A DNA stretch of 64,000 nucleotides, from NCBI RefSeq assembly GCF_056746865.1, contig NZ_CM163382.1; one strand, written 5' to 3'. Below are positions 31,001 to 34,000 of the stretch, piece by piece; the stretch's first letter is position 1, and each line of letters begins with the position of its first letter. A program made the position numbers.

Positions 31001-34000
31001 TTCGCTATTTTTACGTCTGCTGGGCGAGAAAGGGGTGAATGCACTTGAACGCCTGATGGGATTGATTCTGGTGATGATGGCAACCCAGATGTTCCTCGAC
31101 GGCATTCGAATGTGGATGAAGGGGTAACGAGGAGAGTTTTTCGAAAAGAGCCCGGTAGCGTCACAACTACCGGGCGAACAAACTTAACTCAACAGCTGGA
31201 AAGCAATCATCCCAACGATGGCACCAACAGTGCCGAGGATGGTTTCCATCATGGTCCAGGTTTTCAGCGTTTCGGCTTCGGTCGCGCCGGTAAATTTACC
31301 GAACAACCAGAAACCGGCGTCGTTAACGTGGCTGACAACAATCGAACCACCGGCGATACAAATCGACAGCGCCGCCATTTGCGCACCGGAGTAGTTCAGT
31401 TGTTCAATAACCGGCATCACCAGTCCCACCGCCGTTAAACAGGCAACGGTGGCAGAACCCTGAATGATACGCACCGCCGCAGCCAGCACAAAGCAGGTGA
31501 TGGCAATCGGCAGGCCCATGCCGGTTAACGCTTCGCCCAGTGCCGGACCTACGCCAGAGTCAACCAGCACCTGTTTGAACACGCCGCCTGCACCAATCAC
31601 CAGCAGAATGATCCCCGCCGGTTGCAGCGCGTGACCGCAAATCTCCATCACTTTGTCTTTTGGCATGCCCTGACGCATTGCCAGGCCATAAATCGCTACC
31701 AGACAAGCAACCAGAATCGCGGTAAACGGATGACCAATAAACTCGAACCATTCGTAAGCGGTAGAGCCTTCTGGCACAAAACGCGCGGCAATGGTTTTCA
31801 GCCCTACCAGCACCAGCGGCAACAGGATCAGCGACAGGCTGAATCCGAAAGATGGCATTTTGCCTTCGCCGAGATGCGGTTCGCTGATGTCGTCAGGAAT
31901 ATGCAACTCCACGTAGCGGCTGATGAAATTACCCCACAGCGGCCCGGCAATAATCATTCCCGGAATTGCCGCACACAGGCCAATCAGGATCATCCAGCCA
32001 AAGTCGGCGTTCATCTGCGATGCCAGCAGCATTGGCGCTGGCCCCGGTACCAGGAACGCAGCCGCGGCCGCCACGCCTGCGAATAATGGGATTACCAGTT
32101 TCACCAGGTTCGTACCGGTGTGGCGCGCCATTGAGAAAGCAACGCTAATCAGCAGAACAATCGCCACTTCAAAGAACAGCGGTAGCGCACAAACCAGCCC
32201 CGCAAGGCCGATGGCATAATGTGCTCGGCTGTGACCGAAGGATTTGAGCATTTTGACGGCAATCTGATCGACTGCGCCAGTTTCATGTAAGATCTTGCCA
32301 AACATAGCTCCCAGGGCGACAACCACCGCCAGGAAGCCGAGGGTGCCTCCCATCCCTTTTTCCATCGTCGCTGCGATTTTATCGAGCGGCATACCGGAAA
32401 AAAGGCCAGCCCCCATGGACACCACCATCAAAGCCAGGAAAGCGTGCATACGCGCCTTCATGACTAAAAACAGCAGCAGTAAAACAGACCCTACTGCTGT
32501 TAAAACAAGCGTTAATGTAGTCACTACTTATTTGCCTTTTTTAATAACCTCAATGGTGCTTGCCACAACACCTTCCAGCGGTTGATCGATATCCACCACC
32601 AGTACATCGGTTTCGTCCGCACCCGGCTCCTGCAGCGTTTCAAACTGCGTCACCAACATTTGGGTTTTAAAGAAATGGCCTTTGCGCGCTTTCAGGCGGC
32701 TTTCAATCACATCAAAATCGCCTTTCAGGTAGATGAACGAGAGATTCGGATTACCTTCACGCAGCAAGTCGCGATAGTGTTTTTTCAGTGCAGAACAGAC
32801 GATCAGCGACACTTTATTGGTGCGCTGCATAGCAAACGCGGCGTCGTTCAGCGCCTGCAACCACGGTTTGCGATCGTCGTCATTCAGCGGTTCACCAGAC
32901 GCCATTTTTTCGATATTGCGCCTTGGATGGAGGAAATCGCCATCAAGAAACGCGGCATGAAGTTGATGCGCCACTTCACTGGCGACCGCAGATTTGCCGC
33001 TGCCCGATACGCCCATCAAGACGTAAATGTGGTGATCATGGTTAGTCGTGCTCAAAGTGGTGCCCCCACAATACAAGAAATAAAAATGTTACGGGTAACT
33101 GTTATCGGTAACATTGTCCGGCCGGACAATATCAGAAGCAATATCCATCCGTGCCTTAAGTGTATAAGTGTGAGCTACTTCAAATTTGTGGGCTTAAATA
33201 GATCCGCCCGGTGACAAGGTGAAACCTAAATCTAACATTTTCGGTGTCACAGATTCGCCACGAATACGCGCCAGCAGGCGTTCAGCGCCAATACTGCCCA
33301 TCCGCTCACGCGGCGTCAGTACGCTCGCCAACCGTGGTTCCATCACCTGACCAATGTCATGACCATGGAAACCGGCAATCGCCATATCGTCAGGAACTTT
33401 CAACCCCAGACGCTGGCATTCAAACGCCGCGCCGACCGCCAGGTCATCATTAGTACAGAACACGCCATCCAGCTGCGGATATTCCCGCCTCGCCTGGCGA
33501 ATCAGTTCAATACCGGAAGAGTAAGAAGAAGATTGCTCAACCATCACGCTATACGGCACCAGGCCTGCATCCAGCATCGCCTGTTCGTATCCCTTCTGTT
33601 TGATGATAGTACGTTCGTCGAGACGTGCGCCGAGATAGGCAATGTGGCGATGCCCGCGAGCAATAATGGCGGTGGTCATCTGGCGTGCCGCTTCAAAGTT
33701 ATCAAAACCGACGGCAATATCGAGGCACGGCGACTTGCTGTCCATCAACTCCACCACCGGAATCCCCGCCACTTCAATCATCTTTAAGGTGCGTGGCGTG
33801 TGGGTACGTTCGGTGAGGATCAGTCCATCGATATTCCATGAGAGCATTGATTCGAGGCGTTCTTGCTCCATTTCCGGTTTATAACCGTAGTGCGCCAGCA
33901 TAGTTTGATAACCGTGCGCGTCGGTGACGCTTTCGATTCCGCGTAATACTTCCGCGAAAACCTGGTTGGTGAGAGAAGGTAACAGGACGCCAATCGCCCG

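What the first reader, a model, noticed from the sequence alone, without database searches (positions are those of the whole stretch)
33053..33118. gntK appears to initiate at TTG, preceded by tandem GntR operator palindromes
The recognisable GntK N-terminus (STTNHDHHIYV...) is preceded in frame by TTG at 33053-33055, with no in-frame ATG between it and the upstream TTG at 33076 used by the track. About 30 bp further upstream lie two overlapping ATGTTA-N4-TAACAT-like palindromes. Non-ATG initiation would lower gluconokinase translation.
Basis: seen in the sequence. Interest (0 to 1): 0.15.

Follow-up and report, generated by a model that had tools for sequence, protein, structure and literature searches.

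The report
gntK TTG start and GntR operators
The E. coli gluconate kinase gene gntK does start at the rare codon TTG and sits behind two overlapping binding sites for the gluconate repressor, but both features are already in curated annotation and the literature, so the finding is correct and ordinary.

Summary
The window is the E. coli gntR-gntK-gntU region, with all three genes on the minus strand.

- **Start codon.** A TTG at 33055-33053 opens the frame MSTTNHDHHIYV. The mechanical ORF runs seven codons further up to a TTG at 33076-33074, with no ATG between them.
- **Operators.** Two 16-bp ATGTTA-N4-TAACAT-like palindromes lie at 33114-33099 and 33101-33086. They share 3 bp, and their centres are 13 bp apart.

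RefSeq/PGAP, K-12 b3437, Swiss-Prot and PDB 1KNQ all use the 175-aa product that begins at 33055.

New support from 80 Enterobacteriaceae species:
- The codon is TTG in 77 species and ATG in 3.
- Only this candidate start has a Shine-Dalgarno match.
- The DNA upstream varies in length from 18 to 87 nt, in all three frame classes.
- Codons 2-13 vary mostly at synonymous positions.

This rejects both rival starts, TTG 33076 (182 aa) and ATG 33016 (162 aa), although both occur in public annotations.

The 29-bp operator composite is essentially invariant in 79 species. It overlaps a conserved weak promoter with an upstream CRP site. The 13-bp overlapping GntR sites at gntKU are already published as functional.

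Verdict: correct, already known, low interest. One small addition is that TTG is conserved more than neutral sites are, which is suggestive only.

The parts
32528..33055 (-). gntK coding sequence (175 codons plus TAA), gluconokinase
   Evidence: RefSeq and K-12 annotation. NCBIfam NF008583 at 372 bits against a cutoff of 265. 100% identical to PDB 1KNQ.
33053..33055 (-). TTG initiation codon of gntK
   Evidence: Annotated start. TTG in 77 of 80 species and ATG in 3. One Fitch change against a mean of 15 at fourfold sites.
33063..33067 (-). Shine-Dalgarno element GGGGG, 7 nt before the TTG
   Evidence: Duplex with the 16S 3' end is -8.4 kcal/mol; the window's 5th percentile is -6.3. The other candidate starts give +0.6 to +1.2. 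Positions -11 to -8 are purine in 80 of 80 species, and -10 is G in 80 of 80.
33074..33076 (-). Upstream in-frame TTG, the start of the mechanical 182-aa ORF; not used
   Evidence: No SD. No in-frame upstream start codon at all in 38 of the 80 species, and TTGs at this exact position in only 14. It lies in a 5'UTR whose length varies from 18 to 87 nt in all mod-3 classes.
33014..33016 (-). First in-frame ATG (Met14), the start of the obsolete 162-aa model 'ORF_f162'; not the start
   Evidence: No SD. Codons 2-13 show a coding-type pattern of substitutions. The TIGR01313 core begins 3 residues before it. The 162-aa model is present in public annotations.
33099..33114 (-). GntR operator O1, ATGTTACCGATAACAG; overlaps the -10 hexamer and the predicted transcription start
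   Evidence: 1 mismatch to ATGTTA-N4-TAACAT. Invariant in 78-79 of 79 species except the centre base at 33100. Literature: PMC4052901.
33086..33101 (-). GntR operator O2, CAGTTACCCGTAACAT; predicted +5 to +20
   Evidence: 2 mismatches to the consensus. Its core GTTACCCGTA(A/T)C is shared with gntT operator 1. Invariant in 79 of 79 species apart from the shared centre base 33100 (A 48/T 31), 33087 (78/79) and the last base 33086 (A in 71, the window's T in only 6).
33113..33118 (-). Predicted -10 hexamer GACAAT (inferred)
   Evidence: Conserved in 73-79 of 79 species, 17 nt after TTGCTT. It is too weak for the consensus scan. Not verified experimentally here.
33136..33141 (-). Predicted -35 hexamer TTGCTT (inferred)
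   Evidence: Conserved in 77-79 of 79 species at a fixed distance from the operators.
33166..33187 (-). CRP site aaatTTGAagtagcTCACActt, centred at 33176.5 (about -71.5 from the predicted start)
   Evidence: The same 22-mer is listed as the gntKU CRP site with score 13.1 in PMC2395238. Conserved across genera. Kluyvera-type loci carry an 11-bp insertion between it and the -35, which keeps the helical phase.
33194..34189 (-). gntR, LacI-family gluconate repressor that binds O1 and O2
   Evidence: NCBIfam NF011563 at 776 bits against a cutoff of 433; all other hits are LacI-family regulators. Annotation.
31184..32524 (-). gntU, the co-transcribed low-affinity gluconate transporter; GTG start 3 nt after the gntK stop
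   Evidence: NF007781 at 916 bits. Annotation. Its start is GTG in 61 and TTG in 19 of 80 species, abutting or overlapping the gntK stop.

Best explanation
This is the promoter, operator and translation-start region of the E. coli gntKU operon.

**Translation.** gntK translation begins at the TTG at 33055-33053. It is read as fMet and gives the 175-aa gluconokinase. A G-rich Shine-Dalgarno element (GGGGG, 33067-33063) sits 7 nt upstream. The seven extra codons up to the TTG at 33076 are untranslated leader, and the ATG at codon 14 is an internal methionine.

**Transcription (positions inferred).** Transcription starts at about 33105-33106. It comes from a weak sigma-70 promoter (-35 TTGCTT, 17-nt spacer, -10 GACAAT) that depends on cAMP-CRP bound at about -71.5.

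**Repression.** The LacI-family repressor GntR, encoded just upstream, binds two 16-bp palindromes whose centres are 13 bp apart. They span about -9 to +20. Bound repressor would block RNA polymerase binding or promoter escape until gluconate releases it.

**Effect of the weak start.** The weak start codon, followed by a non-ATG start on gntU that is coupled to the gntK stop, probably holds translation of the induced operon below what ATG would give.

**Status of each step.**
- Shown here: the start-codon position, the SD element, conservation of the operators and promoter elements, and the identity of the genes.
- Taken from the literature: that GntR binds the overlapping sites functionally, and that this 22-mer is the CRP site.
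- Inferred: the transcription start position, the steric mechanism of repression, and the quantitative effect of TTG.
For: **Annotation and structure**
- The RefSeq and K-12 CDS starts at 33055.
- The PDB 1KNQ chain is 175 aa and begins MSTTNHDHH.
- NF008583 aligns from residue 8 of the 182-aa ORF.

**Comparative genomics, 80 species**
- The codon is TTG in 77 and ATG in 3.
- 38 species have no in-frame upstream start codon before a stop.
- The distance from operator to start varies from 18 to 87 nt, with mod-3 classes of 40, 22 and 17 species.
- Codons 2-13 vary mainly at synonymous third positions, for example Asn5 AAC 42/AAT 38 and Tyr11 TAC 45/TAT 34.

**Shine-Dalgarno**
- SD pairing is -8.4 kcal/mol at 6-7 nt spacing for 33055 only.
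- The purine run at -11 to -8 is conserved in 80 of 80 species.

**Operators and promoter**
- The operators were confirmed. The stretch GACAATGTTACCGATAAC[A/T]GTTACCCGTAACA is the same in 73-79 of 79 species at every position except the centre.
- The -35 and -10 hexamers and the CRP site are conserved at fixed spacing.
- PMC4052901 states that overlapping GntR sites 13 bp apart upstream of gntKU were shown to be functional.
- PMC2395238 lists the CRP site.

**Start-codon strength**
- UUG starts about 3% of E. coli genes and belongs to the class initiating at 10-100% of AUG.
Against:
- The PDB and Swiss-Prot sequences may rest on the gene model or on a recombinant construct, so they are not independent proof of the native start.
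- No experimental transcription start site was retrieved. The consensus promoter scan did not report the proposed promoter, which matches only 7 of 12 consensus positions.
- Public annotations disagree: the 162-aa model is on 998 contigs and the 182-aa model on 25.
- The effect of TTG on GntK level has not been measured.
Confidence: 0.93

Rival explanations
1. Translation starts at the upstream TTG (33076-33074) and gives a 182-aa GntK beginning MYCGGTTL. This is the longest-ORF model used by the track.
For: It is the first start codon after an in-frame stop. The 182-aa protein is annotated in some O157:H7 genomes, on 25 contigs.
Against: - There is no SD pairing: +0.6 kcal/mol against -8.4 for 33055.
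- An in-frame TTG at this position (7 codons up) occurs in only 14 of the 80 species, and 38 species have no in-frame upstream start codon at all.
- The segment has indels that are not multiples of three, and its length varies from 18 to 87 nt.
- The family profiles and the PDB chain do not cover these 7 residues.
Confidence: 0.02
2. Translation starts at the first ATG (33016-33014, Met14) and gives a 162-aa protein. This was the original K-12 'ORF_f162' model, and the TTG is only a leucine-like triplet in the leader.
For: It is the only ATG near the 5' end. The 162-aa sequence is annotated on 998 contigs. A 2008 regulon paper's coordinate for the CRP site (-171) fits this start (my arithmetic).
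Against: - There is no SD: +1.2 kcal/mol.
- Codons 2-13 are conserved as protein with synonymous third-position turnover in 80 species.
- The TIGR01313 core and the PDB homologues 3T61 and 4EUN align from residues 11 and 7 of the 175-aa GntK respectively, which is before Met14.
- From general knowledge of P-loop kinases, the strand before the Walker A loop (IYVLMG-VSGSGKS) would be lost.
- K-12 annotation was revised to the 175-aa model (NP_417894.2).
Confidence: 0.03
3. The two palindromes are not two independently occupied operators. They form one 29-bp composite site on which only one GntR dimer, or one dimer of GntR or its paralogue IdnR/GntH, can sit at a time, in either of two registers.
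For: - The sites share 3 bp, and the inner half-sites are the degenerate ones.
- The whole composite is a palindrome centred on 33100, the only freely varying base: A in 48 species and T in 31.
- PMC4052901 notes that dimers 13 bp apart overlap in their contact zones and cannot interact according to known structures.
Against: [quoted passage not shown]
- Both outer and inner half-sites are invariant in 79 species, which suggests all four are used.
- An offset of 13 bp places the two dimers on roughly perpendicular faces of the DNA, so both could be bound at once (inference).
Confidence: 0.25

Closest known systems
E. coli K-12 gntK (b3437, Swiss-Prot GNTK_ECOLI, PDB 1KNQ) and its gntKU promoter-operator
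   Same: It is the same gene and the same regulatory region. The protein is 100% identical to the 1KNQ chain. The start codon, SD element, both operators and the CRP site are the same as in K-12.
   Different: There are only strain-level base differences. For example, the leader reads TTTTTATTTC here and TTTTTAATTC in K-12. The K-12 version puts an in-frame TAA two codons before the upstream TTG.
gntT promoter of the same regulon (GntR operators described by Peekhaus and Conway 1998, as used in bioRxiv 10.1101/2023.01.10.523462)
   Same: It has the same 16-bp LacI-type palindrome. gntT operator 1, ATGTTACCCGTATCAT, shares the core GTTACCCGTA with gntK O2.
   Different: gntT has two well-separated operators about 141 bp apart and an ATG start. 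gntK has two operators overlapping at 13 bp and a TTG start.
idnK (gntV), the paralogous thermosensitive gluconokinase, and its idnK/idnD control region
   Same: It belongs to the same kinase subfamily (TIGR01313). It has a GntR/IdnR-type site, ATGTTACGCATAACGT, with a second TGTTAC 13 bp upstream.
   Different: idnK starts with ATG behind a strong AGGAG Shine-Dalgarno element. gntK has TTG behind GGGGG.
Overlapping LacI-family operator pairs at 13-bp spacing (Ravcheev et al. 2014, PMC4052901)
   Same: The centre-to-centre distance is 13 bp and the pair is conserved across a lineage. gntKU is that paper's named example.
   Different: None. This locus is the type example, and the binding geometry remains unexplained there.

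Membership tests
GntK/IdnK-type gluconokinase (NCBIfam NF008583 equivalog; TIGR01313) | Whole-protein score above the curated cutoff | tested here: met
   NF008583 scores 372.3 bits against a cutoff of 265. TIGR01313 scores 241.5 bits against a cutoff of 113.75.
GntK/IdnK-type gluconokinase (NCBIfam NF008583 equivalog; TIGR01313) | Walker A P-loop GxxxxGK[ST] preceded by a beta strand | tested here: met
   The sequence IYVLMGVSGSGKS is present and invariant in 80 species. It is identical to the solved structure 1KNQ.
Genuine TTG-initiated bacterial gene | Shine-Dalgarno complementarity 5-10 nt upstream of the proposed codon and not of the alternatives | tested here: met
   -8.4 kcal/mol at 6-7 nt spacing for 33055. 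The values are +0.6 to +1.2 for 33076, 33019 and 33016.
Genuine TTG-initiated bacterial gene | Orthologues keep a start codon at the same position, and coding-type conservation begins there | tested here: met
   The codon is TTG in 77 species and ATG in 3. Downstream substitutions are mostly synonymous, while upstream there are frame-breaking length changes.
Genuine TTG-initiated bacterial gene | N-terminal sequence of the native protein, or a ribosome initiation footprint | not testable with these tools
   The primary papers (Izu 1996 FEBS Lett; Tong 1996; Izu 1997) are not held. My recollection is that Izu 1996 reported an N-terminal sequence consistent with the gene; this is unverified.
E. 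coli GntR (LacI-family) operator | 16-bp palindrome close to ATGTTA-N4-TAACAT with a central CG-type spacer | tested here: met
   O1 has 1 mismatch and O2 has 2. They match the experimentally used gntT operator.
E. coli GntR (LacI-family) operator | Located at the promoter of a gluconate-regulon gene, next to the gntR gene | tested here: met
   The sites lie 31-60 nt upstream of the gntK start and overlap the conserved -10 hexamer. gntR ends at 33194.
E. coli GntR (LacI-family) operator | Demonstrated GntR binding and gluconate-relieved repression | not testable with these tools
   Known only at second hand: PMC4052901 cites Tsunedomi 2003a for function at gntKU. The primary paper is not held.
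Class I CRP-dependent promoter | CRP consensus site centred near -61.5, -71.5 or -82.5 on the same helical face | tested here: inconclusive
   The site is present and is listed in PMC2395238. Its centre is 33176.5, which equals -71.5 only if transcription starts at 33105 (predicted, not measured). An 11-bp insertion in Kluyvera-type loci keeps the helical phase.

The most novel reading that the evidence does not exclude
The weak start codons of the gntKU operon may be held by selection rather than by chance. TTG at gntK is kept in 77 of 80 Enterobacteriaceae species. gntU never has ATG: it is GTG in 61 species and TTG in 19. In the 71-species subset with full-length gntU, the first base of the gntK start changed once on the tree, against a mean of 15 changes at 234 fourfold-degenerate sites. 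Only 2.6% of those sites changed as little, or 12.8% when counting transversions only. If this is real, low translation of the low-affinity gluconate system would be a tuned trait, in contrast to the ATG starts of gntT and idnK.
Probability: 0.4. Interest if true: 0.2.

Novelty: already known. Interest (0 to 1): 0.08.

Why it matters
It matters mainly as an annotation check. Three start models for gntK circulate in public databases (175, 162 and 182 aa). The track used in the scan carries the 182-aa one. The comparative evidence here shows clearly that the curated 175-aa TTG model is right.

The regulatory layout is textbook for the gluconate regulon: a CRP site, a weak promoter and two overlapping GntR operators.

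The one open question it touches is already flagged in the literature: how two LacI-family dimers use sites only 13 bp apart. This locus is the standard example of that arrangement.

Tried and rejected
- **Primary papers.** None of these is held: Tong 1996 (PMC178079), Peekhaus and Conway 1998 (PMC107090), Tsunedomi 2003 (PMC150117), Izu 1996 (by DOI) and Thomason 2015 (PMC4288677). I therefore could not cite N-terminal sequencing, footprints or a mapped transcription start at first hand.
- **Cappable-seq TSS table.** The table in PMC4782308 is stored cut to about 12% of its size, so I did not search it.
- **Full-text search.** A search for gntK together with TTG and 'start codon' found nothing relevant.
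- **Consensus promoter scan.** It does not report the gntK promoter. I place the promoter by cross-species conservation instead.
- **Rfam.** No known RNA family was found in 32300-33400 at E-value up to 1.
- **Leader hairpin.** A small E. coli hairpin GUGG-GGGCA-CCAC that could mask the SD element is not conserved in other genera, so I dropped it.
- **gntT promoter.** I looked for it inside the window for comparison. The window begins inside gntT, so I fetched the promoter from the identical strain.
- **More distant orthologues.** I did not search Yersinia, Serratia or Vibrio. The answer would not change the verdict and the search is costly.
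Full report
**What is there.**
- The window matches E. coli chromosomes. The 801-nt stretch 32500-33300 is 100% identical to strain 7/2 and is found in 5,424 of 5,426 complete genomes.
- The finding lies in the gntR-gntK-gntU cluster, with all three genes on the minus strand: gntR at 34189-33194, gntK at 33055-32528 and gntU at 32524-31184.
- All three proteins pass NCBIfam equivalog cutoffs. E. coli GntR is a LacI-family repressor despite its name.

**Checking the observation.**
- Read on the minus strand, the sequence is GTAACATTTTTATTTC-TTG-TAT-TGT-GGG-GGC-ACC-ACT-TTG-AGC-ACG-ACT-AAC-CAT.
- The TTG at 33055-33053 is in frame with STTNHDHHIYV. The mechanical ORF extends seven codons up to the TTG at 33076-33074, with no ATG or GTG between.
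- The two palindromes are O1 (ATGTTACCGATAACAG, 33114-33099) and O2 (CAGTTACCCGTAACAT, 33101-33086). They have 1 and 2 mismatches to ATGTTA-N4-TAACAT.
- They overlap by 3 bp, and together they form a 15-nt-arm inverted repeat centred on 33100.
- The motif count in the window is not in itself beyond chance: 5 matches against 2.16 expected. The register and the conservation are what make the sites real.

**Which start codon is used.** Three models exist in public annotation:
- 175 aa from TTG 33055. This is the Swiss-Prot GNTK_ECOLI model, on at least 1,000 contigs.
- 162 aa from ATG 33016, labelled 'ORF_f162' in the original K-12 annotation, on 998 contigs.
- 182 aa from TTG 33076, found in some O157:H7 records, on 25 contigs.

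*Annotation and structure.*
- Current RefSeq/PGAP and K-12 (NP_417894.2) use TTG 33055.
- The crystallised protein 1KNQ is the 175-aa form.
- The equivalog profile begins exactly at that residue.

*Independent test.* I fetched the gntK locus from 80 Enterobacteriaceae species.
- The codon aligned with 33055 is TTG in 77 species and ATG in 3: Yokenella, Trabulsiella and Buttiauxella.
- 38 species have no in-frame start codon at all between that codon and the nearest upstream stop.
- The distance from the end of the operators to the start codon ranges from 18 to 87 nt and falls in all three mod-3 classes, so that stretch is not coding.
- From codon 2 onward, variation is mainly at synonymous third positions, for example Asn5 AAC 42/AAT 38, Tyr11 TAC 45/TAT 34 and His9 CAC 70/CAT 10. 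Residues 2-13 are therefore translated, which excludes Met14 as the start.
- Only the TTG at 33055 has a Shine-Dalgarno partner: GGGGG at 33067-33063, pairing at -8.4 kcal/mol with the 16S 3' end at 6-7 nt spacing. The other three candidates score +0.6 to +1.2, and the window's 5th percentile is -6.3.
- The purine run at -11 to -8 is kept in 80 of 80 species.

It is also what curated databases already say.

**Regulatory anatomy.**
- Anchored on O2, the stretch GACAATGTTACCGATAAC[A/T]GTTACCCGTAACA is the same in 73-79 of 79 species at every position except the central base, which is A in 48 and T in 31. The flanking spacer and leader are free to vary.
- Upstream, ATTGCTT and GACAAT are conserved with a fixed 17-nt spacer. 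I read them as a weak -35 and -10, matching 7 of 12 consensus positions. That explains why the consensus scan missed the promoter.
- The 22-mer aaatTTGAagtagcTCACActt at 33187-33166 is the CRP site listed for gntKU in PMC2395238.
- With transcription starting near 33105, CRP sits at about -71.5, O1 spans -9 to +7 and O2 spans +5 to +20. These positions are inferred.
- Kluyvera-type loci carry an 11-bp insertion between the CRP site and the -35. That is one helical turn, as expected for a class I activator site.
[quoted passage not shown] It also says the binding geometry is not explained by known structures.
- So the tandem operators are known, and their structural puzzle is known too.

**Comparison within the regulon.**
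- gntT's promoter lies just outside the window, which begins inside gntT. It has two separate operators about 141 bp apart and an ATG start.
- idnK, the paralogous kinase, has ATG behind a strong AGGAG and a GntR/IdnR-type site with a second TGTTAC 13 bp upstream.
- gntK (TTG) and gntU (GTG) are therefore the members with weak starts.

**Does TTG lower expression, and is it selected?**
- In general, UUG starts about 3% of E. coli genes and falls in the class giving 10-100% of AUG (bioRxiv 10.1101/063800). Nothing has been measured for gntK.
- On a neighbour-joining tree of the 71 species with full-length gntU, the first base of the gntK start changes once. The 234 fourfold-degenerate sites in gntK and gntU change 15 times on average, 7.5 of them transversions.
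- Only 2.6% of those sites change as little, or 12.8% when only transversions are counted. That suggests a preference for TTG over ATG or GTG but does not prove one.
- gntU's start is GTG or TTG in all 80 species and never ATG. It abuts or overlaps the gntK stop, with gaps of -4, -1 or +3 nt in 74 of the 80, which fits translational coupling.

**Limits.**
- I could not read the primary experimental papers or any data on start-site profiling, N-termini or transcription starts.
- The PDB and Swiss-Prot sequences may follow the gene model rather than test it.
- No Rfam family lies in the region.

**Verdict.** The feature is already known and annotated. Its interest is low, apart from settling a start-site disagreement that persists in public annotations.

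Noticed in passing
window 32522-32531 (gntK stop / gntU start): gntU begins with GTG 3 nt after the gntK TAA. Across 80 species its start is always non-ATG (GTG in 61, TTG in 19). It abuts or overlaps the gntK stop, with gaps of -4, -1 or +3 nt in 74 species, which suggests translational coupling.
   Followed up: partly
window 32474-32499 plus the T-run to about 32464, minus strand: A terminator-like hairpin (11 pairs) followed by CTGTTTTTAG lies inside gntU codons 8-19. It could attenuate gntU relative to gntK. However, it encodes a Leu/Phe-rich membrane helix, so its conservation is confounded with coding.
   Followed up: no
L025, L026, L029, L030, L033, L034, L040, L046, L047, L056, L064 (Klebsiella/Raoultella and related loci), gntK 5'UTR between O2 and the SD element: A 45-55-nt insertion folds into a long hairpin (-16 to -26 kcal/mol). 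Its sequence differs between species while the stem is kept. It could be a REP-like or structured leader element, and it is absent from Escherichia.
   Followed up: partly
window 33057 (position -2 relative to the gntK TTG): This non-coding base is C in 80 of 80 species, although positions -3 to -7 vary freely. Position -1 is T in 65 of 80. The reason is unknown; it may be an initiation-context effect for the weak start codon.
   Followed up: no
L037, L044, L045, L065 (Kluyvera-type loci), between the CRP site and the -35 hexamer: An 11-bp insertion, one helical turn, moves the CRP site from about -71.5 to about -82.5 while keeping its face of the helix.
   Followed up: no
window 33076-33090 compared with K-12 (L002 1613-1627): In the leader, the window strain reads TTTTTATTTC where K-12 reads TTTTTAATTC. 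The K-12 version creates an in-frame TAA two codons before the upstream TTG, so the mechanical ORF context differs between strains.
   Followed up: yes
window 16487-19473: The identical RefSeq strain annotates two pseudogenes with internal stops between glpD and glgP: a hypothetical protein and a PstS-family phosphate-binding protein.
   Followed up: no
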